Origin: Eledone cirrhosa
Lineage: Eukaryota
Assembly: GCA_964016885.1 (NCBI GenBank)
Contig: OZ024746.1
Location: 3,410,001-3,474,000, forward strand
Reading direction: 5' to 3'
Length of the DNA stretch: 64,000 nucleotides
The translations under genes were made by a program, and so were the position numbers. Under the pieces are notes generated by a model, which was not told the DNA's origin, did not search any database, and saw nothing but the letters and a program-made list of their open reading frames with translations. Positions 2,681-33,200 of this stretch are shown in pieces; within the stretch, counting starts at the first letter, position 1; each line of letters starts with the position of its first letter.

Positions 2681-2719
2681 AATCTAGGTACACACATGAA
2701 GAAATGTAAAATAACTTAC

Positions 2720-4198: not shown

Positions 4199-4247
4199 CT
4201 ATAGCAAACCCATAGCCTGAATGAACGTCTGGTAATCCAATAGATTT
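4199..4247 (-). CDS. RTCB: RTCB coding exon 3 (KSIGLPDVHSGYGFAI-G)
   Basis: 49 nt, AG/GT bounded; conserved PDxHxGYGFxIG motif. Not in the ORF track. Confidence 0.96.
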
Positions 4248-5008
4248 CTGGAATTAAGAAAACCATTCTAAGTTCAGATCATTTAAATCATCCTCCAAAA
4301 TATATTTGCTGGGAGCTTCTAAGTGGATACTCGACCAGCAAGAAATAGTAGCCAAATCTCTCTCAAATCAGATCCTACCATCTAGCAAAAAAGGATATGT
4401 TGGATAATGTGGTCCTGAGTTTCTTGCAAATAGGAAAGAGATGGGATGGTCATGGTTGAGATGTCTTTGATTATATGTCTACTAGATAAAGGCTGATCTG
4501 GGACTAAACAAACCTATTTATACCTGAACAGAACTGTTGCCACTCTAAGGAATGGTATGTCGTACTGAAACTACTACATATAAATAATACTGACACAAAC
4601 CAACAAGGATCCTCTATGATGTCACTTGACCTGTTAAAAATAGCAACCGAATCTTTCCCAAAATATACCCTTATCTTAAAAAAAAAGACAAAGACACATT
4701 GGATAATGTGCTCTAGGGATCCTGCTCACAGGAGAAAAGTAAGACGGTCACAGCTGGAAAGTCCTTGATGACAAGGTTGCCTTAACATCATGGAAGAGTC
4801 ATTTATACGGCCAGAATTCTCTCACCTCATTCTGTTCAAACCAGCCATAACTGGTTGCTCATACCAACGTTAAGGTATTGTTCTCAAAATAAATGATAAC
4901 ATCATCAAAATCTCATAGATTAGAGATTATGTGAGATAAAGTCTTTGCTGTGAATATACAATAGTAAATATAGAGTAATGTAAATGGTAAAGGGTTAAAT
5001 CGCATCAT

Positions 5009-5132
5009 GGTCAACTTTGTCTTTCATCCTTCTGGGGTCGATTGAATAAATTAACAGTCAAGTATTGGGGTTCATTTAATCAACTTGGCCTTTCCCTAAA
5101 TTTTCTTGCTTTGTGCCTAAATTAGAAATCAA
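5009..5132 (+). mobile_element. tRNA-derived SINE, 5'-truncated, diverged
   Basis: Carries the ggtcaactttgtctttcatccttctggggtcgat core shared with the full copy at 12843. Confidence 0.75.
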
Positions 5133-5137
5133 TATAA

Positions 5138-5592
5138 TAATTGTTTCTACTTTTGGCACAAGGCAAGCAATTACCCCAGTACGTTACTGGTACTTTATTT
5201 TATCGACCCCCGTAAGGATGAAAGGCAAAGTTAACCTCGGCAGGATTTGAACTCAGACCATAACTCTATACTGCAAAGCATGGCGTCCGAACCTCTACCG
5301 ATACTGCCAATCCACTGCCCTTCAATATAATAATAATAATGACTTTTGATTTAGGCAGAAGGCCAACCATTTTGGTGGGAGAGGAAGGTTGATTAAATCA
5401 ACACCAGTACATTACTGGTACTTTATTTTATTGAGCCCGCAAGGATGAAAGAGATTTCAACTCAGAACATAGGTGTTTGAAGCTCTACCGATTCTGTCAA
5501 TCTACTGTCCTTATGATAATAATAATTCTTTCTACTTTTGACACAAGGCCAGCAATTACCCCAGTGTATTACTGGTACTTTATTTTATCGAC
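5138..5592 (-). mobile_element. Cluster of 2-3 tRNA-derived SINE copies (5138-5322, 5340-5510, 5520-5592)
   Basis: Reverse complements of the 12843-13021 SINE. Confidence 0.85.
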
Positions 5593-5622
5593 TAATAATA
5601 AAAATGAAGTGATATTGTTTAC

Positions 5623-5769
5623 CTGTATAATTCCAGGAAGTGCAGCAACATTACCAATTTGTTTAACTGCAGGTAAAAAGCCACCAAAACCACGATTATT
5701 ACAAGACTGTTTCAATTCATCAAACATTAGTTTCTCCAAGTGATCATTCACATAAAATAATCCCTCCAC
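5623..5769 (-). CDS. RTCB: RTCB coding exon 2 (VEGLFYVND...[10 protein letters not shown])
   Basis: 147 nt, AG/GT bounded, phase 0-0; [17 protein letters not shown] motif of RTCB. Confidence 0.96.
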
Positions 5770-6820
5770 CTGCAAGTGTAGAACATTTAAGAAAATTTAA
5801 TGGTTTATTATAAAGTGTAAAATTAACATCATCGTTTTATGTCTATTTTCCATACTTGCACGGACAAGAAAGGTTGTCACATCCTGAGGCTCGTCATGTC
5901 AGCTGACTGTCTCTTACTCTATGTTCCATTTTGGTATGGTTTCTACAGCTGTATGCCTTTCCTAATGCCAACCACTTCATGCTGTGTACCAGGTTTGTTT
6001 TCTTGTGGCACCATCACTACTACCTATCAGGGTGGACTAGGTGCTTTTTGCATGGCTCCAGTATTATCACCTAACAAAGTGGGTTGGGTGCATTTTATTT
6101 TATCACCAGCACTACCATACATAGATAAACCTATTATATTTTTGCCAGTTGTTTCAAAGAGGGGAGAAAAGGAAGAAAAAATGCAAATGAGAATTATAAT
6201 TCCTTCTTTAAAATGGGTGGTTTTATTTCATAGAAGCAGAGTTGGTTTTGGCTGGGTTGGTAACTAAAGGGTTAAATAAGGTATTGAGTTTCACATCAAA
6301 TTTGCAGGACATATGTTGAAGCAGTGTCATTGCAAAACAAAGATGTGAAACAGATAGACATGTATATAGTTCCCATCTACCATTCACAAGGCATTGGTGA
6401 GCCAGAGGCTAAAGTAAAAGATACTTGCCCAAGGTGCCACATGGTTGGATAAAACTTGAAACCACAAGGTTACAAAGCTAACTTTTTAACCACACAGCCA
6501 CATCTGAACCTCTTATTTAAATTAAATAAACAAATATTTGAAAGTTAGCTGCTGTATGTAGTAATTAATCTCCATTAATACGCAAGTAGCTGAGCCTTCC
6601 ACAAACATGTACTCTTAGTGTAGTTCTCAGGGAGATTCAGTATGATATAGGGTGTGACGAGGCTGGCCTTTTCAATTACAGATACAATTAATTATTGCTG
6701 AGTGAAATAAAGTATCTTGCTGAAGGACATAACATACTGCCAGGAATTGAATTTATTACTCTGATTGTGAACCAAACACCCTAACCACTAAGTCATATAA
6801 CTTCACACTTATATACTCAC

Positions 6821-6910
6821 ATTCATATTAGCAACAAAACCTTTCTTGATTTTCCAGCTGCGTTGTGTAACCTTCTCCAGATATTTGAGTTCTTCATTGT
6901 AGGTCCTCAT
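6821..6910 (-). CDS. RTCB: RTCB coding exon 1 (MRTYNEELKYLEKVTQRSWKIKKGFVANMN)
   Basis: Manual translation matches the metazoan RTCB N-terminus. ATG at 6910 in accATG context, donor GTGAGT at 6820. An acceptor (tctttctacag) at 6930 implies an upstream non-coding exon. Confidence 0.95.
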
Positions 6911-6999
6911 GGTTGTAAGTAGTGAGAAACTGTAGAAAGAGAAAACATCATTAAATTGTTCACAATTTATGTAGGTTTTATGTTATTGGCTTCATTTAT

Positions 7000-7213
7000 T
7001 TAACCTTTTAGCATTTAAACTGGCCATATCCGGCCAGAATTCTCACAACTCTTTCTGTTAAAACTGGCTGTAACCAGCTGCTCATACTGATGTTAAGGTA
7101 TTGTTCTCAAATTAAATAATATCAAAATATCAAAAATTCAATATTATGTGAGATAATTACATGAGATAAAGCCTTTACTGTGAAAATATAATATAATGTA
7201 AATGGTAAAGGGG
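7000..7213. mobile_element. piggyBac-like MITE, family A (also ~4805-4998 and, inverted, ~23442-23668)
   Basis: ttaacc(c)tttagcatttaaac ... gtaaatggtaaaggg(ttaa) terminal inverted repeats with TTAA ends; three clearly alignable copies. Confidence 0.75.
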
Positions 7214-7614
7214 AATAAAAATTCATACAAGGTGTGTAAAACTTTGTATGGTTTTTAAAGGTTGTTTTATGTTCTTTAATTTCATAATCAGCCAGAGCAC
7301 AAAACACAAACAGCTAGAAACATCAATAAAGTTTAGGACCAAGGAAGTATCACTAGATCCTCTTGCATGACAACATTGACCACACAACCAGTGCTCCAGA
7401 AGTGGAACAAATTGGGCTACAAAACTCTGCTTCATCCAACATGCTGTATCTTTCACCAACAGACTATCACTTTTTTAAGCATTTTCACAAGGAAAAGTTT
7501 ATATGAGTATGAAAGATTTGGTCATTACTTTAATTCTTCTTACATTCTTAAGATATGGTCAACATTGGGCCTTGAAACCTTAGGTAGCGCTTGTGTTCCG
7601 TGTATGAACATAAA

Positions 7615-10600
7615 TAATCATCATCGTTTAACATCTATCATCCTTGCTAGCATGGGTTTAGATGGGAATTGTCCCACTTGAGGCAAGATTGGTTGTCTTG
7701 CTCGTATAGGACTGCCTGGCAGGTTTTCTACGGCTGGATGCCCTTCCTAACACCAACCACGTTTACAGTGTGGACTGGGAGGTTTTTACCGTGTTACCTA
7801 CATGGCCACATTACAGCGTGGACTGTGTGTTTTTTTTGTCGTGACACCTACACAACCTCATTTGTTTCGGACTGGATGTTGTGGTACCAACATAACTTCA
7901 CATTGAAGGGGGTGGTAGTGGGACAGGGGTGTATTTTTGTTAGAGGTACCTACTGACTGTAGGTTTTTTCGCTTTGTACTTAGGCAAGCGGGTCTTCTGT
8001 ATTACTGTGTAGCGCCAAAGATCTCGGTCCAGTAACATTGTCTTGGAGAGGTGTAAGTGTATGAGGTCGGAATTTATCAAGTCGTCCCAAGTTTTTCTGG
8101 GTCTGCCAACTCCGTGGCTACCGTCTATTTTTATCGCCCTGCACTTTTTTATACAGCTGTTGTCTTTCATGCGCATCATGTGACCGTACCAACGTAGTCT
8201 TCTCTCGAGTAAACAACATCTGATCCCTCTTATTCCTAATTTCTCCCTTAGTTTATGTTTTGCCGTTCACGTATATTACTATTACACATCCAACGGAGCA
8301 TGCAACCTTCGTTCCTCTCCAGTCTGCGTATATCCTCTGCACACAATGCCCAGGTCTCACTGCCATGTAACATTGCTGTTCGTATGCAGGCATCATACAG
8401 CCTGCCTTTCATTTTTAGAGAGAACCCTTTAGTGGCCAATAGTGGTATAAGCTCTCTGAACTTTTTCCATCCCGTTCTGACTCTAGCTACTGTACTTTCA
8501 GAGCACCCTCCCCCACTGCTGATTTTGTCACCCAAGTAACGGAAGGTGTCCACTATTTCTATAGAACCATCTGTGCAATGGAATGAGCTAGTATTCTGTG
8601 GGCACTTGCTGCTACTTATTACACCAGAGCACTGGCCACATATAAAATCTATATTCTTAGTTAGCTTACCTGTGATCCCACTACATCTTTTATGCACTCA
8701 TACTTTGCATTTGGGACATAAAATGGAGTTTCTGCCTACTCCTTTCCTACACACTGAGCATGGCCATTACCCAGATGGGACCGGTGCCCTATTTTCCTTC
8801 CTACAAACTAGAACTTTAGTCTTAGACAAGTTAACTTTAAGGCCTTTTGATTCTAGGCCATGCTTCCATGTTTCGAATTTCTTCTCTAGTTCAGCCATTG
8901 ATTCACTTATGAGCGTTAGATCATCTGCATATAGGAGTTCCCATGGGCAGCCGGTCTTGAACTCCTCTGTTATAGCCTGAACGGCAATAATAAATAGAAA
9001 GGGGCTAAGAACGGAGCCCTGATGAACACCAACTTTTACGCTAAACTCTTCACTATATTCGTTGTTAATTCTAACCTTGCTGACTGTTTCTTTATACATG
9101 GCTTGTATAGCCCTCACAAGCCATTCATCAACACCTAGTTTTCTAAGGGCCCACCAGATAATGGAGTGGGGGACTTTGTCAAAGGCTTTCTCCAAGTCAA
9201 CAAAAGCTAAGTATAGGAGTTTACTTTTAGCTAGGTACTTCTCCTGTAGTTGTTGTACAATGAAAAGAGCGTCTGTGGTACTTTTACCCGACACAAACCC
9301 GAACTGCATTTCATCTAGATCAATTCTCTCTCTGATTAGTTGCACTATTACCTTTTCTGTGACCTTCATGACCTGGTCGATTAATTTAATGCCTCTATAG
9401 TTACCCCTATCTAGGGCATCTCCTTTACCCTTGTAGCAGTTAATGATGATGCTGCTATGCCAGTCCTTCGGAACAACCCCATTCTGTATGACTTGGTTTA
9501 CTATCCGGGTGACCATAGTGTGTCCCACCATTCCAGATGCTTTCAGCATTTCAGCAACTATTTCCGAAGGCCCAGCCGCCTTACCCGTCTTCATATCTTT
9601 GATTGCCTTACTTATTATACTACCTTCAACTAGCACTGCTGGTCCCTCTATTGGATCGATGTGGGGGAGACTGTCTTTCTCCTCATTTAGTAGCCTTTCG
9701 TAGTGACACTTCCAAGCTACCTTCTTATCAGCGTCAGTGATGGCAAGTACACCATCATCATTAAGGACACACTTCTCCCCGACAATATCACGGTTTTCCT
9801 TGACACATTGCCTAGCAATCCTGAACACCTCACGTTGTAGAACATGCTTGAACTTTCTTTCCTCTGCTTCCCTTCTTGTGAAGTACACTTGTCTCCTAGC
9901 TTCCCTCCTGGCCACTTGATAATCTTCTCTACTTCCTCCATCCTGCCATACTTTCCAAGCCTGCTATTTGGCCTTAATTGACTCCTCCACCACCACGTTA
10001 CTCTCCTCCTGCCTATAGGCCTGCTCCAGCCACAGACTTCATCTGCTGCCATCAGCAGGTTAGCTTTCAGGAATTCCCACTGTTCCTCTATATTGTATGA
10101 CTCTAATTGCTCTTCCTTACTGTCGAAAGCATCAAGTAATATGCTTTTAAATTTATTACTGGCTGTGGGGTCCTTTAACTTCCATATTTTTCTCCTGAGG
10201 ATAGTCCTCCTCTGTTGTCGAGTACGTCTTGTCCTGACTATGAGTCTATGTTGGGAGGTGCATTCTTCATGGGGGAGGGATTTAGTGTTTAGAACAGACA
10301 CTCTATCACGTCTTCTGGTAAGGATATAATCTATCTGACTGGTGTGTTCCCCTGATCTATAGGTGATCAAATGATTGTCTCATTTTTTGAAGTTAGTGTT
10401 ACAGATAGTTAGGTTATTTGCGTCACAGAATTCCAGGATTCTGGAGCCTTCCTCATTTTTAGTACCAAACCCATAGCCTCCATGGATTCCGTCATAGCCG
10501 TCACAATGTTGTCCAACAGTAATTTAGGTCGCCAGCAGTAATTATGTAGTCACTGTCGGTTATTTGGGAGGTAGCGAGCATCAATGTCTCATAGAATCTG

Positions 10601-11190
10601 TCTTTTATAGTGCCGGGCAGTCCGGATTGGGGTGCATACGCAGATATTACTGTCACAGTAGTTCTATTTAAGACAAGTCTTATTTTAATTATTCTGTCGT
10701 TCACTCTATTTACGTCTATTATCTTATCTACCCATTTTTCTGCTAACATGATTCCTACCCCACCCAGAAAAGCTTATAGCATCGTTTTTTACCCACAATG
10801 ACTCTAGCAGACCCACCCCTCCACCTGGATACAGCAAACATCAACCTCCTTACATTCAAGCATTTCTACAACCTAGTTAGAGCGACTTTTTAAGGTGCCT
10901 ACATTCATGGTACCAACTCTGAAGTTTTGGATTGCGTTTGGTGGGTGGGAACGGTGGGGCGCGGGGAGGGGTGAGGGGGATGGGGTTGGGGTTATGTTGG
11001 CCATCCGTGGCTGAAACAAAGAGGGGGAGTCCTTGTCTTTTCGTCCGGCAGCATGAGGTGAATTTGTCCTTATCTTTGGCATTATCACTGAGTGTCCAGA
11101 TTTTTCAGACTCTCCAGAATTCCTTAGTCCATCCATCATATCGAAAAGCAACCAGAAGTGATAGCATAGGGCGCTGATTTATGATTGGTC
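7615..11190 (-). mobile_element. Near full-length RTE-clade LINE (AP endonuclease + reverse transcriptase) with a disrupted ORF
   Basis: APE motifs GTMNVGTL, VISAYAPQ, AGDLN, SQIDYIL; RT motifs NYRGIKL, QFGF, AFVDLEKAFD, GVHQGSVLSP, LLYADDL; C-terminal WYGHMMRM and GRPRKTW; 3'UTR ends in (GAT)n. Stop at 8767 and several frameshifts. Confidence 0.95.
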
Positions 11191-11197
11191 CTAATAA

Positions 11198-11382
11198 TAA
11201 TTGTTTCTACTTTTTGGCACAAGGCCAGCAATTATCCCAGTACATTACTGGTACTTTATTTTATCGACCCCGTAAGGATGAAAGGCAAAGTTAACCTCGG
11301 CGGGATTTTAACTCAGAATGGCAAGGGCCGTAACTCTATGCGTCAAAGCATGGCGTCCGACCCTCTACCGATACTGCCAATT
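11198..11382 (-). mobile_element. tRNA-derived SINE
   Basis: Nearly identical to 14412-14592 and to the reverse complement of 12843-13021. Confidence 0.9.
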
Positions 11383-12079
11383 CCTAATAATAATGGTGGA
11401 GAGTGGGGGCGGGTGGGAGGGGTATGGGGTAGTTAGCAAGAGGGTTTGAATAAAATCTTCGAATTTTGGGCATAATTGGACAAGTCTATAACAGTAATAA
11501 GCGAATAATGGGATTTTAAAATACAAGAAGATTATTAGAACAACCAGGCATAATTATAGAATAGCATTGAGAGAGAGCAAAAGATTGGATTCTGGGCGAT
11601 GATACGGATATATGAATGAATGGACCGAGAGGCTGGAGAGACAAGAAAAAAATGGTATTTTACATTACATTTCGCAGAGGTGGGGGGTGGAGGCAGCAGG
11701 TCTGACCATTAATAAGCGTTGACAAATTCTGAGATTCGTACCTCGTAACAAGTTTATTTATATTTGGTGAGAGAAGGGAGTGATTGAAAGGGTGAACTAG
11801 CGGGCGCGTATACGATATAGGGGGGGGGGGTAGTAAAGATTAAGAGGGACAAGGAGGCCATTTTATAAATCCTAGAATTTTCGGCCAAAATTAAACAAAA
11901 CGAGATTGTTATTTTAGAAAAACAAATGGGGCATTTTACGAGAGGGTTTAAATAAAATCTTCGAATTTTGGGCATAATTGGACAAGCATATAACAGTAAT
12001 TAAATAGCTCTGTACTATATATAGAGCACTCTTTTTTCCTTTACCTTTTCTACGGAAATACTTCACATATATATATACT

Positions 12080-12471: not shown

Positions 12472-12842
12472 TACTCTCCCTTCACTATATAAACACCCTA
12501 CTGGCTACCCTTTAACCACACACTGCCAGCCCCTGTCACACACAACTATATCACCTGCTGTCAATCTTTTATGACTTGAAAACCAAATGTTATTCACCAA
12601 CACTACAGCACAAGCATGACACACCTCACAACTGATTGGAGGACTAATACAGGTATTTACAAACAATTTAAGACAAATCACCTGCACCAGAATATACATC
12701 TAACAATAATTCCTTACTTTGTGCTGGCCTTATATAGCGCCTATGAGTAATGTTGGTGTGTACATCTTGCTTTCATTTACTGTGCTATCTAAATGTAGGG
12801 AGTTCCTAGTGTGTTGTATATAAAGTACAAATGCATGTGAAT

Positions 12843-13021
12843 TGGCAGTATCGGTAGAGGGTCGGACGCCATGCTTTCTAGCATAGTTACGTCCCTTTAC
12901 GGTCTGAGTTCAAATCCCGCCGAGGTTGACTTTGCCTTTCATCCTTACGGGGTCGATAAAATAAAGTACCAGTAATACACTGGGATAATTGCTGGCCTTG
13001 TGCCAAAAGTAGAAACAATTA
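12843..13021 (+). mobile_element. Full-length tRNA-derived SINE with Pol III A and B boxes
   Basis: A box TGGCAGTATCGG, B box GAGTTCAAATCC, core ccgaggttgactttgcctttcatcc. Further copies at ~3425, 23740, 43703, 49550. Confidence 0.9.
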
Positions 13022-13299
13022 TTAGAATGCACATAACCTATCTACCCCCCACCCGCCTGAAGCGCACGAAAAAACAAAAACAACAACCATATAGTCTGTA
13101 AATAAACATACTTTCATTTTGTAGTATTTTATAGGAAGTGTCCCAAAGACATTGGAAGGATATCTCTTCTAAAACTATAACAATCTCTCTGAATTAGCTG
13201 ATTCTTACAACTTAACCCTTCCCAGTAATCTTTCTAGAATATTCTTCAAACCCACGTCCTCTCCTCAACATTAAATACTAACTTATCACAGATAAAATT

Positions 13300-14140: not shown

Positions 14141-14184
<44 letters not shown>

Positions 14185-14302
14185 GTAGAAGTTCTATTTA
14201 AATTATTGGAATACAACAAGCAAATATTTTTATAACTGATATAAAGCACTCAACAAATTATTGGAGTAAAAATACGATATATTAACAAATGGAAACTATA
14301 TT

Positions 14303-14367
14303 TATTTCATTATACATATTTCAAGGACACCAAGTCAAATTATGGTGCGCTTTCATCAGATAAAATA
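14303..14367 (-). ncRNA. Minimal type-I hammerhead ribozyme, copy 1
   Basis: uauuuuau CUGAUGA aagcgcacca-uaauuugacu-ugguguccuu GAAA uaugua UA augaaaua: 8-bp stem I, ~9-bp stem II with one mismatch, 2-bp near-palindromic stem III, AUA site. Confidence 0.82.
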
Positions 14368-14411
14368 TAATATAGATCAGTTTTATAAATAAATATTGAC
14401 ATACCCTTAAA

Positions 14412-14600
14412 TAATTGTTTCTACTTTTGGCACAAGGCCAGCAATTTCCCAGTGTATTACTGGTACTTTATTTTATCGACCCCGTAAGGATGAAAGGCAA
14501 AGTTAACCTCGGTGGGATTTGAACTCAGAATGGCAAGGGCCGTAACTCTATGCGTCAAAGCATGGCGTCCGACCCTCTACCGATACTGCAAATTCACTAA
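14412..14600 (-). mobile_element. tRNA-derived SINE with a 17-bp target-site duplication
   Basis: acatacccttaaataat occurs at 14399-14415 and 14601-14617. Confidence 0.92.
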
Positions 14601-14990
14601 ACATACCCTTAAATAATGCGACCATTTCTGTTGGAAGCTCCCGGATAGTGGGGTTATTAAATTTATTTAGTCTATTATGCAAATTAGTGTCGGATATGTT
14701 TAAATCACAGTAGATTTAAAATAAGCCGTTGGGGTATGGAGAAAGAGAAAGCCCTAAGTGATAGGTTGTTGTATTTGCGTAAATTTTAAGATGAAGTGAA
14801 AAAATAAATATTTATTGGATGAGTTAGGAAGAGTAAATAAGCGTAAATAGAAAATAAATAAATAATAATAACTGGAGAATTTTATCCAATGTTTAAATAT
14901 GGTTAAATGTTTAGTTTATCAATTAAATTATTGAGATCTATTAAAAGAATATATTCATATATATATATATACACACACACATATATACGT

Positions 14991-15222
14991 GTATGTCAAT
15001 ATTTATTTATAAAACTGATCTATATTATATTTTATCTGATGAAAACCACCATAATTTGACTTGGTGTCCTTGAAATATGTATAATGAAATAAATATGGTT
15101 TTATAAATATAGTTTCCATTTGTTAATATATCGTATTTTTACTCAATAATTTGTTGAGTGCTTTATATCAGTTATAAAAATATTTGCTTGTTGTATCCCA
15201 ACAATTTAAATAGAACTTCTAC
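14991..15222 (+). mobile_element. Penelope-like/retrozyme-like repeat copy 2, inverted relative to copy 1
   Basis: Reverse complement of 14185-14404 with a few indels; flanked by TA/CA microsatellite. Confidence 0.75.
15028..15091 (+). ncRNA. Minimal type-I hammerhead ribozyme, copy 2 (weakened stem II)
   Basis: uauuuuau CUGAUGA aaaccacca...ugguguccuu GAAA uaugua UA augaaaua; core intact, base of stem II disrupted. Confidence 0.7.
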
Positions 15223-15911
15223 ACACATATATATATATTTTTTTATATATACAATGTCCACGAGACACGTTTGTAATAGATCGAAATTATGTAAAAACGA
15301 GTTTTGACAATAACTACTGAAATCTGATTACAAATCACTTATCAAATCTAGGGAATCATTACAGCGTGTTTTTACATATGGTTTGTCTATTACAAACCTG
15401 TTATATATATATATTACATGCAAATATCCCATACAGTATTTGCATGCCAACGTCCATTCATATTCGCTATAAGATCATTGTGTAAGACTTCCACAGAAAT
15501 ACAATGTATTGCTAACATTTATAACTAACCATGTTTTCATCGGGGTTCTTTAAGCAAATTAAAACCGTAGAGTATATATGTAGGTAATACCCCCACGAGG
15601 AATAAATTTGAAAATTAGCTTATTATACATAGAGATATCTAAATTATCTATTTTATAGATAGATATATTTAAACAGTGCATTAAGATGAAAAATGATATT
15701 TTAAAACCAAATCCAAATGAATTTTATAATATTTAATGACTGATATATTTATTACTGCTCATATTCTGTTTCATGAAAATTCAATCAAGTTACCCTAAGG
15801 GTAGAATTTGTAATATAGACCTACATATACATCTTATACCAAGAGTTCAGTATACTTCGGATATGCAGACAATGTACTTAATAAAAAAGACACTTAAACA
15901 TTCTATTATAT

Positions 15912-15948
<37 letters not shown>

Positions 15949-18900
15949 ACTCGGAATAGTGATAACGTATAATTTCAGTGACGGTGTGTTACAATAAAAA
16001 AAAATCGGAATCTATAATAAAAGCCGTTGATTAAATTTACTTTAGTCAGTTACCTTTGTTCAATTTAAATGAAAATAATAAAAAAATAATGCATTTATTA
16101 AAATATATTTACCGGTTTTGTTAGAGACAGCAAACCGAAAGAATAAGACCTCCGACCGGTTCCACGTTTCTGTCAATTCAATTGCAAGGAGCTTAAAGAC
16201 ACGCAACTCTACGAGGAAAAAAATGAACAAAGATACCCCCAAATTTTTTAAATAGAACATTTATTCAACAACGACGTTTTAAATATTTACTATTTTTATT
16301 AGATATTCCTTTTTGCAAAGAAAAAATAAAATCAACTTTGAAATATAAAATAAATATTATTTGCAAAAGTTCTTTGTAAATGATGTAAGCGGCTAGTGTA
16401 AATGGTGAAAGTAATATATGTTTTCTTTTATTATCTGTTTTTATAATATTTTTAGTGTTTTATATCAGGAAGACTTGCGTGTGAAATATAAAGCAATGTC
16501 TTAAAGTATATGTGTTTATAATTAAATTTACGATATTTTTTGTCTTAGTCTGGCCTGATGAATATTCATATAATACATTATGTATTATTCTAATTATACC
16601 TACTAAGCGGCCTTTCTGTAGTTTCGAACATTAGCTAAATCCGGCCTCATTTACTTGATGGTATCAATTTATCTCCATTCATTTGGTAAGTTCTTAACTG
16701 ATTTACACTAAACATATCATGCATTTTTTTTCTTATTAATATACATCTCTTTATTTCTTATGTTGATGCTGCAATTATTATTTAAGAGCCTCCATTTTCA
16801 CGATCAAATTCAACCCTTAACTGTCCTGGTACCCGCCTTTCACTTGACCATTGCTTAATGTCTGCTTACCGCTCTCTCTCTCTCTCTCCCCTTTATAAAT
16901 AAATAAATATATCTATGTATGATATTGACGATGTTTTCTTTCTTTCTCATTCTTTAAAAACAAAACAAAACATTATTTAATCCACCCACAACCAATAAAT
17001 AATCATTGCTGTATTTTGAAAATGTTATTTAGCTAAGAATTTCACCCTAGGAAGCTGCTGAAAATACTGAACTCTATACATAACTGAAGTTTCCTACATT
17101 CACTTACGAACCACAAGTATGGTGGATCGAATTTTGCAGTATGGCCTCTTGCCACAAACACTTTTCTTTTTCTCCCTCTATTCTTATTTTCTTCTCGTTC
17201 CTTTTAAACCAAATCTATTTCTAGAATAAATACATATAGGTGGAATTATTATTTATTCCGACTTCTTTTGTTTTTAACTACGACAATAATTTTGAAAGTT
17301 TCCCTGAATATTATATTTAAAATACGTAAATAGAAAGGGAAATGTGATAACCTTTCTAGTTGTAGTAGTAATATTGATTGCAACTGTAATATTTATTGGA
17401 GTTTGGTATGAAAATTGGAGGGATAGCAAATTGATGAGGACAATCGATAATAGTGATCATATTGACATATCGTATATGACCCCAGGATGTCAATAAGTCC
17501 AGGTCAGTTCGCCTTCCTAATTTACTGCTTTATTTCTCTCTAGTCCCCCCTCCTCTCTCTCATATATATATATATATTTATATGTATATATATATATTTA
17601 TATATATTATATATATATATATATATAGGGATAGAGAAATGAAGAGAGAATAGCCAAAAGCAATTACCAGAAGCTTAATGTTTATTCCCATCTTGCGCCG
17701 TAGAACTAGAGGTAAGCTCTTATTGAGTTAGCTCTGGAATTCGGTTTCAAATCATAGTTGTAACTATTTCACTTTCATTTCCTTGGTTAATACTGCTTCT
17801 GGGAGGAGTATATAAACACCATGTTGTCTCATTTCCCCCACCCGTGTTTACATGAGAAAGAAATACACTTATTGTTTGTGTTTTATAACATTTGTTATTG
17901 GTCTTATAGCAAGTGCAATAGAAATGGCGTGGGTAGTTAAAAGTTGACTCGATATTGTATTATCCAGTGCTGTTGTAGTTGGACTGCTTTTGTGTTCATA
18001 TCCCTCTTGTGTTACCTCAATGGGGTCAATAGCCTGACGTCTTTACAATCTGCTTTCCGTCATGTCTAAAGTCATTATTGTAATAATTGCACACATATCA
18101 TTGTTGCCATTAAACTCTATTACTGGTTATTTCCTGTTTATATTTGAAATAACATACACATGTAACAACACCCCAACACATTCACAACATACACACCCAC
18201 ATAAACACTCATAACTGTAGACAATACTTATCTAAATTCAGCCGGGGACTTTTATATATTTACTACATTTCTTTTCTGGGTTTAGTTTTAATTTAACTTG
18301 CAGATTATTCGTACACTTATTACTATACAATATATCATCTATATATATATAAACGAAAATGTCTGTATGCAGGCGATGCATTTCCACAGTTTCCATCCGA
18401 TTTTGTTCACATTTGATACATAGGTTATTTTGCTCCTGGAGCATGTCAACGTACAGTTTAAATTTTGCTCTTCTCTAAAATAGCAGAGTTCTGGGGCTAT
18501 TTAAAGACGGCCCTGTTGATGAGAGAGGGGTCTTTATTTACAGTGGCGAAAGGTTAGCTCCCGGTAAATCGAGTTTACACCTGTGTTTCAGTTTCGGATA
18601 GTAGCTAGAGTGTTTCTATGTCTATAGTCATTAAGTTTAATCGATCACCTATTGATGTATAATCAGGAAAATAGAAAAGACGTACACGTCTATATTTATC
18701 ACAACAACGTTGCATGGTATAATAAACACACATATTCCTACTACGGTTCCCTAATTACAACACTTTTGGCAATATGTTCCATTCCTCTAAGAAGATTACC
18801 ATTATATCTTTATCAATATCCCCTCCTCTTTCTCGTCATGTTTTGGGAATTTTCTAAAATATGAACTAAGTTTATTTACTTTATATTAACTTCTCGGATA

Positions 18901-19404
18901 CCAAAGGAAGAGTGAACGAGATGGTGCAACGCTAATGTTTAGACAGATTAGCTCTTTGATCAGTCTAATGATCTAAGACATTCCAACCGTGACCATACTG
19001 CATTGATTTCAAATGAAGTGTATTTAGTGGTTACATTAACCAGTGTGATTTAAGGGAGATTTGGCTGCTATTTCTAGTAGGTCGAGCGCCAACGTAGATG
19101 TTTCTTTTTTCGACGAACGAGATCTGAAATCATTGTAAACCGAGTTTTGTCCTGGGCTTTTGTAAATATTACTGATTTGTCAAAAATGGTGGAGCACCTG
19201 GTTAAGTACCTTCAAGTATTTGCTTTTGGTTATCGACATCTTTTTGTGCAAATGCCACCCAAGTAAAAAGTATTTTTTTTTTCTTCAAGTGGTGATGGAA
19301 ATACGCACCAGTAAATACAACTGGATTCAATTAATTCAACTCGCGCCTCGTCTACAAAAATTGGTCATATAAAAACAAAAAACAAAAAAAAAATCAATAT
19401 TATT

Positions 19405-19565
19405 GTTTTAGCTTCTGGTCAGCCCTAACTGAGCAATTCCAGCCATGACCATCATCTCTGAGATTGTCGTAGGACTACATTAATCCAACGCGTCTCCCTC
19501 TTTTCAAGATGATAGATTCAGCTGCTACTTTTAGCAGGTCATACAGAGAGCCTGTCTCGTTGTCT
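19405..19565 (+). mobile_element. Abundant ~200-bp interspersed repeat, unclassified (also ~4330, 4620, 13790, 18960, 20200, 50560, 57998, 59250, 60660)
   Basis: Shared motifs ttccagccatgaccatc, ggactacattatccaa and gatttggctgctatttctagcaggtc in both orientations. Confidence 0.65.
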
Positions 19566-19776
19566 CGATATTAATTTGTAAAAGGTGGTGGAAGGTAGTA
19601 GAACACCTTATATGATTCTGTTTCGTACTCCGTTCAGCTAAAAGAAATCTTTAATTTCTAAATGATGTTTATTTTATTTTCACCCTTGTTTAGTTTCTTG
19701 ACACTGCAAACATTTTTCTTTTTAAATTCCAACGGGAAAATTTAAATCTTGCATTATAGATGTTTCTGCTACAGAG

Positions 19777-19837
<61 letters not shown>

Positions 19838-19842
<5 letters not shown>

Positions 19843-20112
19843 GAGGTTTATATTTAATTTGTTGGGATTCAACAAGCTTAAACATTTTATAACTGATATA
19901 AAGCACTCAATAGATTAGTGGAGTAAATACACAATATATTAATAAATGGAAACTATATTTATAAAACCATATTTATTTTATTATGCATATTTCAAGGGCA
20001 ACCAAGGCAAATTACGGTGCGCTTTCATCAGATAAAATACAGATTTGTTTTATAAATAAATATTGACATACCCGGAGAAAAAGACAACCTTAACGGTTGG
20101 AGCTTCCTGGAT
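19838..20112 (-). mobile_element. Penelope-like/retrozyme-like repeat copy 3, between (TA)n and (CT)n tracts
   Basis: Aligns with 14185-14650 once the SINE is removed. Confidence 0.75.
19974..20039 (-). ncRNA. Minimal type-I hammerhead ribozyme, copy 3
   Basis: uauuuuau CUGAUGA aagcgcaccg-uaauuugccu-ugguugcccuu GAAA uaugca UA auaaaaua: perfect 8-bp stem I, AUGCAU palindrome in stem III. Confidence 0.82.
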
Positions 20113-20113
20113 A

Positions 20114-20114
20114 G

Positions 20115-20195
<81 letters not shown>
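20114..20195. repeat. (CT)n microsatellite; (TA)n tracts at 19783-19839, 21531-21575, 21678-21737 and elsewhere
   Basis: Direct inspection. Confidence 0.97.
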
Positions 20196-25189: not shown

Positions 25190-26942
25190 GATATCTAGCA
25201 TGTGGGCTGGCTGTCATTCAGTCTAGCAGCTAGACTAACTGGCATCCTGTCTAGCATGTGGGCTGGCTGTCATTCAGTCTAGCAGCTAGACTAACTGGCA
25301 TCCTGTCTAGCATGTGGGCTGGCTGTCATTCAGTCTAGCAGCTAGACAAACTGGCATTCTGTCTAGCATGTGGGCTGGCTGTCATTCAGTCTAGCAGCTA
25401 GACAAACTGGCATTCTGTCTAGCATGTGGGCTGGCTGTCATTCAGTCTAGCAGCTAGACTAACTGGCACCCTGTCTAGCATGTGGGCTGGCTGTCATTCA
25501 GTCTAGCAGCTAGACAAACTGGCATCCTGTCTAGCATGTGGGCTGGCTGTCATTCAGTCTAGCAGCTAGACTAACTGGCATTCTGTCTAGCATGTGGGCT
25601 GGCTGTCATTCAGTCTAGCAGCTAGACAAACTGGCATCCTGTCTAGCATGTGGGCTGGCTGTCATTCAGTCTAGCAGCTAGACTAACTGGCATCCTGTCT
25701 AGCATGTGGGCTGGCTGTCATTCAGTCTAGCAGCTAGACAAACTGGCATTCTGTCTAGCATGTGGGCTGGCTGTCATTCAGTCTAGCAGCTAGACAAACT
25801 GGCATTCTGTCTAGCATGTGGGCTGGCTGTCATTCAGTCTAGCAGCTAGACAAACTGGCATTCTGTCTAGCATGTGGGCTGGCTGTCATTCAGTCTAGCA
25901 GCTAGACAAACTGGCATTCTGTCTAGCATGTGGGCTGGCTGTCATTCAGTCTAGCAGCTAGACTAACTGGCACCCTGTCTAGCATGTGGGCTGGCTGTCA
26001 TTCAGTCTAGCAGCTAGACAAACTGGCATCCTGTCTAGCATGTGGGCTGGCTGTCATTCAGTCTGGCATTCTGTCTAGCATGTGGGCTGGCTGTCATTCA
26101 GTCTAGCAGCTAGACAAACTGGCATCCTGTCTAGCATGTGGGCTGGCTGTCATTCAGTCTAGCAGCTAGACTAACTGGCATCCTGTCTAGCATGTGGGCT
26201 GGCTGTCATTCAGTCTAGCAGCTAGACAAACTGGCATTCTGTCTAGCATGTGGGCTGGCTGTCATTCAGTCTAGCAGCTAGACAAACTGGCATTCTGTCT
26301 AGCATGTGGGCTGGCTGTCATTCAGTCTAGCAGCTAGACAAACTGGCATTCTGTCTAGCATGTGGGCTGGCTGTCATTCAGTCTAGCAGCTAGACAAACT
26401 GGCATTCTGTCTAGCATGTGGGCTGGCTGTCATTCAGTCTAGCAGCTAGACTAACTGGCACCCTGTCTAGCATGTGGGCTGGCTGTCATTCAGTCTAGCA
26501 GCTAGACAAACTGGCATCCTGTCTAGCATGTGGGCTGGCTGTCATTCAGTCTAGCAGCTAGACTAACTGGCATTCTGTCTAGCATGTGGGCTGGCTGTCA
26601 TTCAGTCTAGCAGCTAGACAAACTGGCATTCTGTCTAGCATGTGGGCTGGCTGTCATTCAGTCTAGCAGCTAGACTAACTGGCATTCTGTCTAGCATGTG
26701 GGCTGGCTGTCATTCAGTCTAGCAGCTAGACTAACTGGCATTCTGTCTAGCATGTGGGCTGGCTGTCATTCAGTCTAGCAGCTAGACTAACTGGCATTCT
26801 GTCTAGCATGTGGGCTGGCTGTCATTCAGTCTAGCAGCTAGACTAACTGGCATCCTGTCTAGCATGTGGGCTGGCTGTCATTCAGTCTAGCAGCTAGACA
26901 AACTGGCATCCTGTCTAGCATGTGGGCTGGCTGTCATTCAAT
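25190..26942. repeat. 56-bp tandem array, ~31 copies
   Basis: Unit tgtgggctggctgtcattcagtctagcagctagac(t/a)aactggcat(c/t)ctgtctagca, period 56; one shortened unit near 26060. Confidence 0.97.
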
Positions 26943-27219
26943 CTATTATTATTTTTTTTTTGCAAATATTTTGCTGTGAAGTCATATTTGAGATCTCATA
27001 ACTGTGTACAGTTAGACATTGGACTGAAGACAGGTTATGACATTTAATTGTTTATTTAACTTTGTCAAATTTCAGTCACTAATAAACCTTTGTCAAAAAT
27101 ATTATTTTAAAAAGAAGTGTTTTGTCATAGTGAAAGATTTACGAAGCTCTTGTCTAACATTCTGACTGATTAATATTGTGTAACAGAAGGATTGACTGTC
27201 TCTCTACCAAGTATGTGGT

Positions 27220-30200
27220 AGTTTAGCAAGAGAAGTAATTGACTGTCTGACAGTTTAGCAAGAGAAGTAATTGACTGTCTGACAGTTTAGCAAGAGAAGT
27301 AATTGTCTGACTGACAGTTTAGCAAGAGAAGTAATTGACTGTCTGACAATTTAGCAAGAGAAGTAATTGACTGTCTGATAGTTTAGCAAGAGAAGTAATT
27401 GACTGTCTGACAGTTTAGCAAGTGAAGTAATTGACTGTATGATAGTTTAGCAAGAGAAGTAATTGACTGTCTGACAATTTAGCAAGAGAAGTAATTGACT
27501 GTATGATAGTTTATCAAGATAAGTAATTGACTGTCTGACAGTTTAGCAAGAGAAGTAATTGACTGTCTGACAATTTAGCAAGAGAAGTAATTGACTGTCT
27601 GATAGTTTATCAAGAGAAGTAATTGACTGTCTGATAGTTTATCAAGAGAAGTAATTGACTGCCTGACAGTTTAGCAAGAGAAGTAATTGACTGTCTGATA
27701 GTTTATCAAGAGAAGTAATTGACTGTCTGACAGTTTAGCAAGAGAAGTAATTGACTGTCTGACAGTTTAGCAAGAGAAGTAATTGACTGTCTGACAGTTT
27801 AGCAAGAGAAGTAATTGACTGTATGATAGTTTAGCAAGAGAAGTAATTGACTGTCTGACAATTTAGCAAGAGAAGTAATTGACTGTCTGATAGTTTATCA
27901 AGAGAAGTAATTGACTGTCTGATAGTTTATCAAGAGAAGTAATTGACTGTCTGACAGTTTAGCAAGAGAAGTAATTGACTGTCTGATAGTTTAGCAAGAG
28001 AAGTAATTCACTGTCTGACAGTTTAGCAAGAGAAGTAATTGACTGTCTGACAGTTTAGCAAGAGAAGTAATTGACTGTCTGACAGTTTAGCAAGAAAAGT
28101 AATTGACTGTCTGATAGTTTAGCAAGAGAAGTAATTGACTGTCTGACAGTTTAGCAAGAAAAGTAATTGACTGTCTGATAGTTTAGCAAGAGAAGTAATT
28201 GACTGTCTGACAGTTTAGCAAGAGAAGTAATTGACTGTCTGACAGTTTAGCAAGAGAAGTAATTGACTGTCTGACAGTTTAGCAAGAGAAGTAATTGTCT
28301 GACTGACAGTTTAGCAAGAGAAGTAATTGACTGTCTGACAATTTAGCAAGAGAAGTAATTGACTGTCTGATAGTTTAGCAAGAGAAGTAATTGACTGTCT
28401 GATAGTTTAGCAAGTGAAGTAATTGACTGTATGATAGTTTAGCAAAAGAAGTAATTGACTGTCTGACAATTTAGCAAGAGAAGTAATTGACTGTCTGATA
28501 GTTTAGCAAGAGAAGTAATTGACTGTCTGACAGTTTAGCAAGAGAAGTAATTGACTGTCTGACAGTTTAGCAAGAGAAGTAATTGACTGTATGATAGTTT
28601 AGCAAGAGAAGTAATTGACTGTCTGACAGTTTAGCAAGAGAAGTAATTGACTGTCTGATAGTTTAGCAAGAGAAGTAATTGACTGTCTGATAGTTTATCA
28701 AGAGAAGTAATTGACTGTCTGATAGTTTATCAAGAGAAGTAATTGACTGTCTGACAGTTTAGCAAGAGAAGTAATTGACTGTCTGATAGTTTATCAAGAG
28801 AAGTAATTGACTGTCTGACAGTTTAGCAAGAGAAGTAATTGACTGTCTGACAGTTTAGCAAGAGAAGTAATTGACTGTCTGACAGTTTAGCAAGAGAAGT
28901 AATTGACTGTATGATAGTTTAGCAAGAGAAGTAATTGACTGTCTGACAATTTAGCAAGAGAAGTAATTGACTGTCTGATAGTTTATCAAGAGAAGTAATT
29001 GACTGTCTGATAGTTTATCAAGAGAAGTAATTGACTGTCTGACAGTTTAGCAAGAGAAGTAATTGACTGTCTGATAGTTTAGCAAGAGAAGTAATTCACT
29101 GTCTGACAGTTTAGCAAGAGAAGTAATTGACTGTCTGACAGTTTAGCAAGAGAAGTAATTGACTGTCTGACAGTTTAGCAAGAAAGGTAATTGACTGTCT
29201 GATAGTTTAGCAAGAGAAGTAATTGACTGTCTGACAGTTTAGCAAGAGAAGTAATTGACTGTCTGACAGTTTAGCAAGAGAAGTAATTGACTGTCTGACA
29301 GTTTAGCAAGAGAAGTAATTGTCTGACTGACAGTTTAGCAAGAGAAGTAATTGACTGTCTGACAATTTAGCAAGAGAAGTAATTGACTGTCTGATAGTTT
29401 AGCAAGAGAAGTAATTGACTGTCTGACAGTTTAGCAAGTGAAGTAATTGACTGTATGATAGTTTAGCAAGAGAAGTAATTGACTGTCTGACAATTTAGCA
29501 AGAGAAGTAATTGACTGTCTGATAGTTTAGCAAGAGAAGTAATTGACTGTCTGACAGTTTAGCAAGAGAAGTAATTGACTGTCTGACAATTTAGCAAGAG
29601 AAGTAATTGACTGTATGATAGTTTATCAAGATAAGTAATTGACTGTCTGACAGTTTAGCAAGAGAAGTAATTGACTGTCTGACAATTTAGCAAGAGAAGT
29701 AATTGACTGTCTGATAGTTTATCAAGAGAAGTAATTGACTGTCTGATAGTTTATCAAGAGAAGTAATTGACTGTCTGACAGTTTAGCAAGAGAAGTAATT
29801 GACTGTCTGATAGTTTATCAAGAGAAGTAATTGACTGTCTGACAGTTTAGCAAGAGAAGTAATTGACTGTCTGACAGTTTAGCAAGAGAAGTAATTGACT
29901 GTCTGACAGTTTAGCAAGAGAAGTAATTGACTGTCTGACAGTTTAGCAAGAAAAGTAATTGACTGTCTGATAGTTTAGCAAGAGAAGTAATTGACTGTCT
30001 GACAGTTTAGCAAGAAAAGTAATTGACTGTCTGATAGTTTAGCAAGAGAAGTAATTGACTGTCTGACAGTTTAGCAAGAGAAGTAATTGACTGTCTGACA
30101 GTTTAGCAAGAGAAGTAATTGACTGTCTGACAGTTTAGCAAGAGAAGTAATTGACTAAACTGATAGTTTAGCAAGAGAAGTAATTGACTGTATGATAGTT

Positions 30201-33200
30201 TAGCAAGAGAAGTAATTGACTGTCTGACAGTTTAGCAAGAGAAGTAATTGACTGTCTGATAGTTTAGCAAGAGAAGTAATTGACTGTCTGATAGTTTAGC
30301 AAGAGAAGTAATTGACTGTCTGATAGTTTAGCAAGAGAAGTAATTGACTGTCTGATAGTTTAGCAAGAGAAGTAATTGACTGTCTGACAGTTTAGAAAGA
30401 GAAGTAATTGACTGTCTGACAGTTTAGCAAGAGAAGTAATTGACTGTCTGACAGTTTAGCAAGAGAAGTAATTGACTGTATGATAGTTTATCAAGAGAAG
30501 TAATTGACTGTATGATAGTTTAGCAAGAGAAGTAATTGACTGTCTGACAGTTTAGCAAGAGAAGTAATTGACTGTCTGATAGTTTAGCAAGAGAAGTAAT
30601 TGACTGGCTGATAGTTTAGCAAGAGAAGTAATTGACTGTCTGATAGTTTAGCAAGAGAAGTAATTGACTGTCTGATAGTTTAGCAAGAGAAGTAATTGAC
30701 TGTCTGACAGTTTAGCAAGAGAAGTAATTGACTGTCTGATAGTTTAGCAAGAGAAGTAATTGACTGTATGATAGTTTAGCAAGAGAAGTAATTGACTGTC
30801 TGACAGTTTAGCAAGAGAAGTAATTGACTGTCTGACAGTTTAGCAAGAGAAGTAATTGACTGTCTGACAGTTTAGCAAGAGAAGTAATTGACTGTCTGAC
30901 AGTTTAGCAAGAGAAGTAATTGACTGTCTGACAGTTTAGCAAGAGAAGTATTTGACTGTCTGACAGTTTAGCAAGAGAAGTAATTGACTGTATGATAGTT
31001 TAGCAAGAGAAGTAATTGACTGTCTGAGAGTTTAGCAAGAGAAGTAATTGACCGTCTGACAGTTTAGCAAGAGAAGTAATTGACTGTATGATAGTTTAGC
31101 AAGAGAAGTAATTGACTGTCTGACAGTTTAGCAAGAGAAGTAATTGACTGTATGATAGTTTAGCAAGAGAAGTAATTGACTGTCTGACAGTTTAGCAAGA
31201 GAAGTAATTGACTGTCTGACAGTTTAGCAAGAGAAGTAATTGACTGTCTGACAGTTTAGCAAGAGAAGTAATTGACTGTATGATAGTTTAGCAAGAGAAG
31301 TAATTGACTGTATGATAGTTTAGCAAGAGAAGTAATTGACTGTCTGATAGTTTAGCAAGAGAAGTAATTGACTGTCTGACAATTTAGCAAGAGAAGTAAT
31401 TGACTGTCTGATAGTTTAGCAAGAGAAGTAATTGACTGTCTGATAGTTTAGCAAGAGAAGTAATTGACTGTCTGACAGTTTAGCAAGAGAAGTAATTGAC
31501 TGTATGATAGTTTAGCAAGAGAAGTAATTGACTGTCTGATAGTTTAGCAAGAGAAGTAATTGACTGTCTGACAATTTAGCAAGAGAAGTAATTGACTGTC
31601 TGATAGTTTAGCAAGAGAAGTAATTGACTGTCTGATAGTTTAGCAAGAGAAGTAATTGACTGTCTGACAGTTTAGCAAGAGAAGTAATTGACTGTCTGAC
31701 AATTTAGCAAGAGAAGTAATTGACTGTCTGATAGTTTAGCAAGAGAAGTAATTGACTGTCTGATAGTTTAGCAAGAGAAGTAATTGACTGTCTGACAATT
31801 TAGCAAGAGAAGTAATTGACTGTCTGATAGTTTAGCAAGAGAAGTAATTGACTGTCTGATAGTTTAGCAAGAGAAGTAATTGACTGTATGATAGTTTAGC
31901 AAGAGAAGTAATTGACTGTCTGATAGTTTAGCAAGAGAAGTAATTGACTGTCTGACAGTTTAGCAAGAGAAGTAATTGACTGTCTGACAGTTTAGCAAGA
32001 GAAGTAATTGACTGTCTGACAGTTTAGCAAGTGAAGTAATTGACTGTCTGATAGTTTAGCAAGAGAAGTAATTGACTGTCTCATAGTTTAGCAAGAGAAG
32101 TAATTGACTGTCTGTTAGTTTAGCAAGAGAAGTAATTGACTGTCTCATAGTTTAGCAAGAGAAGTAATTGACTGTCTCATAGTTTAGCAAGAGAAGTAAT
32201 TGACTGTCTCATAGTTTAGCAAGAGAAGTAATTGACTGTCTGATAGTTTAGCAAGAGAAGTAATTGACTGTCTGACAGTTTAGCAAGAGAAGTAATTGAC
32301 TGTCTGACAGTTTAGCAAGAGAAGTAATTGACTGTCTGATAGTTTAGCAAGAGAAGTAATTGACTGTCTGACAGTTTAGCAAGAGAAGTAATTGACTGTC
32401 TGATAGTTTAGCAAGAGAAGTAATTGACTGTCTGATAGTTTAGCAAGAGAAGTAATTGACTGTCTGACAGTTTAGCAAGAGAAGTAATTGACTGTCTGAC
32501 AGTTTAGCAAGAGAAGTAATTGACTGTCTGACAGTTTAGCAAGAGAAGTAATTGACTGTCTGACAGTTTAGCAAGAGAAGTAATTGACTGTCTGACAGTT
32601 TAGCAAGAGAAGTAATTGACTGTCTGACAGTTTAGCAAGAGAAGTAATTGACTGTCTGACAGTTTAGCAAGAGAAGTAATTGACTGTCTGACAGTTTAGC
32701 AAGAGAAGTAATTGACTGTCTGACAGTTTAGCAAGAGAAGTAATTGACTGTCTGACAGTTTAGCAAGAGAAGTAATTGACTGTCTGACAGTTTAGCAAGA
32801 GAAGTAATTGACTGTCTGACAGTTTAGCAAGAGAAGTAATTGACTGTCTGACAGTTTAGCAAGAGAAGTAATTGACTGTCTGATAGTTTAGCAAGAGAAG
32901 TAATTGACTGTCTGATAGTTTAGCAAGAGAAGTAATTGACTGTCTGACAGTTTAGCAAGAGAAGTAATTGACTGTATGATAGTTTAGCAAGAGAAGTAAT
33001 TGACTGTCTGACAGTTTAGCAAGAGAAGTAATTGACTGTCTGACAGTTTAGCAAGAGAAGTAATTGACTATCTGACAGTTTAGCAAGAGAAGTTATTGAC
33101 TGTCTGATATTTTAGCAATGAGAAGTAATTGACTGTCTGACAGTTTAGCAAGAGAAGTAATTGACTGTCTGATAGTTTAGCAAGAGAAGTAATTGACTGT

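What the first reader, a model, noticed from the sequence alone, without database searches (positions are those of the whole stretch)
14303..20039. Repeat family carrying intact minimal hammerhead ribozymes (3 copies) upstream of RTCB
Seen: three copies (14303-14367 -, 15028-15091 +, 19974-20039 -) contain stem I / CUGAUGA / stem II / GAAA / short stem III / UA / stem I'. All core nucleotides are unchanged although the copies differ elsewhere. Differences between copies 1 and 3 keep the pairing: G-U vs A-U in stem I, A-U vs G-U at the tip of stem II, and AUGUAU vs the perfect palindrome AUGCAU in stem III. Known: minimal type-I hammerheads with a 1-2 bp palindromic stem III are typical of Penelope-like element terminal repeats and metazoan retrozymes, and cleave as dimers. 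Inference: this is a non-autonomous ribozyme-bearing retroelement family that inserts in (TA)n. I cannot tell whether the family has been described.
Basis: partly seen in the sequence, partly recalled or inferred. Interest (0 to 1): 0.8.

Follow-up and report, generated by a model that had tools for sequence, protein, structure and literature searches.

The report
Ribozyme-tipped stubs of a Penelope-like retrotransposon
The three hammerhead motifs are the cut-down ends of a protein-coding Penelope-like retrotransposon, likely of the Hydra clade, with an estimated 50,000 copies in this genome; the ribozyme likely works only as a pair in full-length elements, and its closeness to RTCB is likely chance.

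Summary
The three motifs are real and at the stated coordinates. They are not a stand-alone non-autonomous family. [quoted passage not shown] Sister subfamilies keep intact ORFs and identical pLTRs. A random 600 kb holds 10 copies (about 50,000 per genome), so 2-3 in 64 kb is ordinary and the RTCB link unsupported. Stems covary across subfamilies, including an in-register self-complementary stem III that fits dimer cleavage. Within subfamilies the core decays like the flanks. Copy 2 (stem II) and copy 3 (stem III) carry private damage; the 'perfect palindrome' is off-register. New details: an 86-nt tail; 5' ends that pile up at an initiator-like motif (predicted start site) and not at the cut site; about 100,000 hammerhead motifs in the genome. 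Cleavage was not tested. Verdict: new family of a known kind.

The parts
14185..14988 (-). Copy 1: 5'-truncated 3' end of the PLE (part of 3' UTR, pLTR, tail), subfamily A, interrupted by a SINE; 14-bp deletion just after stem I'
   Evidence: Collinear with the 3' end of full unit L104 at 82-96%; 5' end in the element's own microsatellite
14303..14367 (-). Hammerhead motif 1; matches natural subfamily-A copy L016 throughout; predicted cut after 14311
14416..14600 (-). tRNA-derived SINE (label by eye, from a B-box-like motif) inserted later into copy 1; 17-bp target duplication at 14399-14415 and 14601-14617
14991..15222 (+). Copy 2: pLTR end plus tail, subfamily A, head to head with copy 1
   Evidence: 97-99% to the best genomic copies; 97% to both pLTRs of ORF-bearing L104 and L207
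15028..15091 (+). Hammerhead motif 2; core unchanged, base of stem II damaged; predicted cut after 15083
15137..15222 (+). 86-nt tail between the two preferred 3' ends; in full units it continues about 45 nt to the ATG
   Evidence: 3' ends at query 146 (36 copies) and 231-232 (58) of 110; junctions
19840..20115 (-). Copy 3: subfamily C, 276-nt unit from the initiator-like motif (predicted start site) to the tail end
   Evidence: 95-97% to the 39 other best copies; tail runs into the ORF in L134 and L114; 5' end class
19974..20039 (-). Hammerhead motif 3; private U>C in stem III breaks the dimer register; predicted cut after 19982
19777..19839 (.). (TA)n target flanking the tail of copy 3; shorter TA runs flank copies 1 (14172-14184) and 2 (15223-15238)
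6800..6910 (-). RTCB first coding exon, approximate (neighbour, not part of the element): ATG at 6910, 7.4 kb from the nearest motif, preceded by a splice-acceptor-like sequence, so the start site is unknown

Best explanation
The three repeats are 5'-truncated ends of a Penelope-like retrotransposon family, likely of the Hydra clade, whose full units encode their own predicted reverse transcriptase and endonuclease; the hammerhead likely cleaves weakly as a dimer in full-length RNA, and the window's copies are likely inert passengers. Shown: unit layout is pLTR(hammerhead) - tail - ATG - 737-742 aa ORF - 1.5-1.9 kb 3' UTR - pLTR(hammerhead), often with an inverted truncated copy at the 5' side, flanked by (TA)n. 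Inferred from related PLEs: RNA starts inside the upstream pLTR, likely at the (T/C)CACT motif about 275 nt before the tail end; the endonuclease nicks (TA)n; reverse transcription starts internally at either of two sites 86 nt apart and usually stops early or flips, leaving solo and inverted stubs. The two hammerheads 3.8-4.2 kb apart would swap strands to form an 8-bp stem III and release unit-length RNA (about 0.65). Inserted copies span the cut site, so the templates were likely uncleaved.
For: pLTR-ORF-pLTR units with pLTRs 97% to copy 2: L104, L106, L205, L207. Copy-3 subfamily runs into its ATG. Unbroken 737-745 aa ORFs in sister subfamilies: L098, L099, L197-L202, L204; L199's two pLTRs are identical over 231 of 231 nt. 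Model pLDDT 87.7; best fold matches are telomerase RTs (Foldseek 3du5, E 3e-9; Z 15.9, rmsd 4.0, 285 aligned); residues 618-720 match I-TevI GIY-YIG (Z 9.7, rmsd 2.1, 88 of 92). Motifs RWR, DKT, YRDD, CxCx5C, CxxC, CxH present, GxKF absent, as defined for Hydra. Head-to-head pairs: 52 of 64 have one tailed and one short end, the pattern described for PLEs. Across 16 motifs 97.6% of cells pair and 9 of 21 pairs change on both sides; stem III is AUAUGUAU (97), AUAUAUAU (33) or AUGCGCAU (15) of 179, all self-complementary in register. Within subfamilies the core changes at 17/1740 against 137/11382 in flanks, p = 0.47.
Against: No cleavage or RNA evidence. No intact ORF was found in the window's own subfamilies: 4 of 4 subfamily-A units opened are broken, and none of the 13 of 132 hits at 90% or more has an open frame above 651 aa. 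No tree with reference PLEs was built. Pfam finds no RT or GIY-YIG in the ORF itself (1 and 2 of 57 relatives). Position 10.1-11.1 is A-U, not the usual G-C, and AUA was the slowest of four triplets in one viroid hammerhead (PMC1636495, abstract). Monomer folds are no better than shuffles (z -1.4, -0.2, +0.2). Base-matched, the core shows 17 changes against 25.4 expected (P = 0.052), so weak constraint on copies is not excluded. The covariation rows are related and the structure came from these sequences.
Confidence: 0.9

Rival explanations
1. The roughly 275-nt start-to-tail units are a self-propagating non-autonomous sub-element: each holds promoter, ribozyme and RT start site and is re-copied in trans by the PLE protein.
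For: 5' ends pile up 268-282 nt from the tail end in A (12 of 25), C (9 of 37) and a young subfamily (3 of 23); no intact ORF found in subfamilies A or C.
Against: The other 5' ends range from 86 to over 1,600 nt. Short and long copies share the same minor variants; 3 of 15 columns reach p of about 0.04, none fixed.
Confidence: 0.07
2. A metazoan retrozyme: short head-to-tail repeats cut into monomers and circularised by RtcB.
For: Type I hammerhead in a mollusc-like genome; RtcB circularises retrozyme monomers in vitro (PMC7229834).
Against: No array with the motif in the window. 15 direct neighbours within 600 nt among 257 motifs; the 8 loci listed were other subfamilies, nested inverted pairs, or copies split by microsatellite. 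The repeat is contiguous with an RT ORF.
Confidence: 0.02
3. The local copies are co-opted and regulate RTCB, for instance by cutting a 5' UTR intron (copies 1 and 3 are on the RTCB strand).
For: Same strand; RTCB probably has an upstream non-coding exon; RtcB ligates hammerhead-type ends.
Against: Density is at genome average; two of three copies carry private damage; CpG is retained from 11.5 to 23 kb but near zero at 6-7.5 kb and beyond 23 kb, which suggests (inference) that the copies lie outside both gene bodies.
Confidence: 0.02

Closest known systems
Hydra-clade PLEs, including Hydra-1_Obim from Octopus bimaculoides (Craig et al. 2021, PMC8557442)
   Same: C-terminal GIY-YIG, DKT, CxCx5C linker, CxxC/CxH, sense hammerhead near the 3' end, (TA)n targets; RT blocks such as FDxTMGS and GxYRDD match the Hydra rows and not the Penelope/Poseidon, Neptune or Nematis rows of Fig. 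S7 (by eye).
   Different: Not the same family as Hydra-1_Obim: protein start and hammerhead differ by eye. Unit is 3.8-4.2 kb against 'generally <3 kb', through a long 3' UTR. Tail is 86 nt against 30-40. Triplet is AUA with a U15.2-A16.2 pair, where the listed Hydra hammerheads have GUH; RWR for RWK; clear pLTRs.
Poseidon PAc of Anolis (Frangieh et al. 2024, PMC11167929)
   Same: Two preferred ends defining a tail; AT-rich targets; no sign of ends at the hammerhead cut.
   Different: In PAc the ribozyme and RT start sites overlap the ORF start; here both lie upstream of the ATG. Different clade.
PLE minimal hammerheads (Cervera and de la Pena 2014, PMC4209133)
   Same: Type I core, long helix II, palindromic helix III, mostly solo copies from truncated PLEs, some inverted pairs 100-700 bp apart.
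   Different: A-U at 10.1-11.1, a conserved mismatch at stem II position 4, an 8-nt stem III; estimated count is above the 2,000-9,000 per genome reported there.
Non-LTR retrozymes (PMC7229834; bioRxiv 10.64898/2026.07.22.740005)
   Same: Type I hammerhead, proposed PLE origin, high copy number.
   Different: Those are short head-to-tail non-coding repeats; these are dispersed or inverted stubs of a coding element.

Membership tests
Penelope-like elements | Single ORF with telomerase-like RT and GIY-YIG endonuclease | tested here: met
Penelope-like elements | Pseudo-LTR partial tandems, inverted 5'-truncated copy, tail at one end, strong 5' truncation | tested here: met
   L099, L104, L197, L207 layouts; two 3' end classes; 52 of 64 pairs tail+short
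Hydra clade | Endonuclease C-terminal to RT | tested here: met
   GIY-YIG fold at 618-720 of 742
Hydra clade | RWK motif present, GxKF/Y absent, DKG changed to DKT | tested here: met
   RIRWR at 35 (R for K), DKT at 118, no GxKF (definition)
Hydra clade | CxCx5C linker; CxxC and CxH near the end; CCHH absent | tested here: met
   CNCRNKSNC 601, CDLC 699, CRH 726; CCHH absence judged by eye
Hydra clade | Sense hammerhead near the 3' end and insertion into (TA)n | tested here: met
Hydra clade | Placement in the Hydra clade of an RT phylogeny; no IFD | not tested
   Reference proteins were seen only in the paper's supplement; compared by eye
Type I hammerhead ribozyme | Conserved core and three stems with covariation | tested here: met
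   copy 2 fails at stem II and copy 3 at dimeric stem III
Type I hammerhead ribozyme | Match to an Rfam hammerhead model | tested here: inconclusive
   No match at these motifs; a miss does not exclude a variant
Type I hammerhead ribozyme | Site-specific self-cleavage | not testable with these tools
   Needs a bench assay
Non-LTR retrozyme | Non-coding head-to-tail repeats of 150-450 bp, each with a hammerhead | tested here: not met
   contiguous with an ORF

The most novel reading that the evidence does not exclude
The pile of stub ends maps the element's RNA in vivo: the mRNA starts at a conserved initiator about 275 nt before the tail end, the hammerhead sits in its 5' UTR, and the RT starts 45 or 130 nt upstream of the ATG and copies that 5' leader back to the cap, mass-producing ribozyme stubs. 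The dimeric ribozyme would then be a switch that removes the cap and takes RNA out of the template pool. This leaves an octopod-like genome with about 100,000 hammerheads, about as many as the far larger axolotl genome.
Probability: 0.35. Interest if true: 0.55.

Novelty: new member of a known kind. Interest (0 to 1): 0.3.

Why it matters
Mostly an annotation result: it turns an apparent orphan ribozyme repeat into the debris of a large Hydra-type PLE radiation that Pfam and Rfam both miss. Its use is as a test system. The role of PLE hammerheads is open; here young intact subfamilies, thousands of junctions and natural compensatory changes in the dimer helix make the dimer and 5' UTR models directly testable.

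Tried and rejected
Rfam: no hammerhead at these motifs. Pfam, NCBIfam and PDB sequence searches of the ORF: nothing meaningful. Single-sequence fold of the endonuclease: pLDDT 42.5, not used. Sequencing runs: no RNA holder listed; laid contigs cannot show ends or expression, so one search is not used as evidence. A tail-only search for subfamily A returned nothing because the words are too common. Cleavage footprint: 5' ends within 7 nt of the cut site in 2 of 36 C copies (1.7 expected) and 0 of 15 young copies (0.7 expected), so no enrichment. The subfamily-B rows were wrong (reference with a mutated core) and were redone. In one search, two C values (L227, L228) come because one search failed on them; 3 of 28 A loci gave no tail match and were dropped; four A ends at 349 reflect divergence of the reference; the uniform null there is crude. 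No earlier scan findings. Lunse et al. on dimer cleavage was not held; only its title was seen.

Full report
Observation. Copy 1 equals a natural subfamily-A copy across the motif. Copy 2 has a private G>A and a 1-nt deletion at the base of stem II. Copy 3 has private changes at the stem II tip and in stem III. The helix that must form pairs A15.1 with U16.1; in that register AUAUGUAU pairs fully with a second copy, while AUAUGCAU has two mismatches and was seen once in 179 motifs.

Host. The genome is 3.0 Gb in 1,796 contigs. The closest named protein relative of the element's ORF is from Argonauta hians, 39% identical. An octopod host is my inference.

What the repeat is. The best genomic copies are 96-99% identical to copy 2. 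They end at one of two fixed 3' points 86 nt apart, abut (TA)n, have variable 5' ends, and often carry an inverted partner; 52 of 64 head-to-head pairs have one tailed and one short end, 7 have two tailed ends. Walking upstream led to an ORF. In L104, L106, L205 and L207 two direct copies of the repeat, 97% identical to copy 2, flank that ORF region 3.7-4.2 kb apart. The tail runs about 45 nt into the ATG in subfamilies A, B and C. All four A units opened are broken, and none of the 13 closest N-terminal hits (of 132) has a full open frame. Sister subfamilies at 78-86% protein identity to A keep unbroken ORFs of 737-745 aa; in L199 the two pLTRs are identical, which points to recent activity.

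The protein. Pfam does not name it. An AlphaFold model from a 57-row alignment (pLDDT 87.7) matches telomerase RTs best, and residues 618-720 match the I-TevI GIY-YIG domain (Z 9.7, rmsd 2.1 over 88 residues). It has RWR, DKT, YRDD, CxCx5C, CxxC and CxH and lacks GxKF, the diagnostics that Craig et al. give for the Hydra clade (PMC8557442 section 11). Their supplement lists one octopus member, Hydra-1_Obim; its protein and hammerhead differ clearly by eye, so this is another family. No tree was built.

The ribozyme. Across 16 motifs from six related subfamilies or families, 97.6% of cells pair and 9 of 21 pairs change on both sides; sliding the partners drops pairing to 34-53% (the rows are related and the structure came from them). 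Stem III is AUAUGUAU, AUAUAUAU or AUGCGCAU in 145 of 179 motifs, each self-complementary in register. That fits selection for a dimer. Within subfamilies the 12 core positions change at 0.98% against 1.20% in flanks (p = 0.47; base-matched 17 against 25.4, P = 0.052), as expected if selection acts mainly on source elements. These copies were top search hits, so absolute rates are low. Against strong activity: A-U at 10.1-11.1, the AUA triplet (PMC1636495, abstract), and weak monomer folds. Published PLE hammerheads cleave poorly and only as dimers (PMC4209133) or need the element's protein and are dispensable for insertion in vitro (PMC11167929).

A likely start site. 5' ends pile up 268-282 nt from the tail end in A (12 of 25), C (9 of 37, chosen on the tail alone) and the young subfamily (3 of 23). 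Four subfamilies keep (T/C)CACT there while the neighbouring sequence differs; its likeness to the metazoan initiator is recalled. Penelope RNA starts inside the pLTR (PMC2377424), and PAc primes internally at two sites that bound the tail. I infer that such stubs, copy 3 among them, are complete copies of the RNA's 5' leader. Ends are not enriched at the cut site. Short and long copies share variants, so the stubs are not shown to be their own lineage.

Copy number and RTCB. Sixty random 10-kb stretches, drawn from 23 large contigs with some lengths underestimated, hold 10 hammerhead-spanning copies of this group, 7 of which pass the descriptor: about 50,000 per genome (24,000-92,000), 1.07 per 64 kb. 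All descriptor hits give about 145,000 (97,000-208,000), 3.1 per 64 kb. The axolotl count is 126,247 (PMC7229834). The window is therefore average. The RTCB ATG is at 6910 on the minus strand, beyond a LINE fragment; its start site is unknown.

Literature seen. PMC8557442: passages, section 11, supplement parts 2 and 58 and search passages. PMC11167929 and PMC4209133: parts 1-2 of 4. bioRxiv 10.64898/2026.07.22.740005: part 1 of 5; its species table is in a supplement I could not see. PMC7229834: passages and section 15. PMC6765202, PMC2377424, PMC13282606, PMC6962438: passages. PMC1636495: abstract. Searches showed no description of this family or its hammerhead. An Octopus vulgaris annotation reports 31 recently active Penelope-like families without mentioning hammerheads; I did not see its library, and the family may be there unnamed. 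A giant squid genome paper reports 235 Rfam hammerheads.

Verdict. Real motifs, known kind of element, apparently undescribed family. Membership in PLEs is well supported, Hydra clade by motifs only, ribozyme activity predicted. Interest 0.3.

Noticed in passing
window 51336-57407 (+): One uninterrupted 2,024-aa reading frame with three TFIIIC/GTF3C1 Pfam domains; an intronless largest subunit may be a retrocopy or a giant exon.
   Followed up: partly
window 27220-40310; also 25194-26945 and 60985-64000: A 13-kb array of a 32-bp unit (409 copies, 96% matches) and 56-bp and 51-bp minisatellites.
   Followed up: no
window 6001-27000: CpG observed/expected is near zero at 6-7.5 kb and beyond 23 kb but 0.44-1.5 from 11.5 to 23 kb, suggesting methylated gene bodies around an unmethylated gap.
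   Followed up: partly
window about 7900-11200 (-): Broken LINE with an RVT_1 domain; RTE-like by recall.
   Followed up: no
window 5134-5316, 5517-5592, 11194-11387, 12837-13024, 14416-14600, 43702-43809: Six copies of one SINE.
   Followed up: no
L146, L149, L154, L162, L164, L172, L176, L184, L188, L196: Several unrelated hammerhead families in random stretches, e.g. stem III ACUAGU or ACCACUGGU with GUH triplets like published Hydra hammerheads.
   Followed up: partly
L242:548-1829; L239:1496-2407: Stacks of inverted stub pairs separated by (TA)n, including different subfamilies side by side; such pairs would form long RNA hairpins if transcribed.
   Followed up: partly
L062:1-681; L064:96-575: Fragments of other RT-like ORFs next to insertions of this family, probably other PLE families.
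   Followed up: no
G000:C6:26.53-26.80 Mb (L243-L247): Four young copies with the same 5' junction within 270 kb, plus a fifth identical tail: likely segmental duplication.
   Followed up: no
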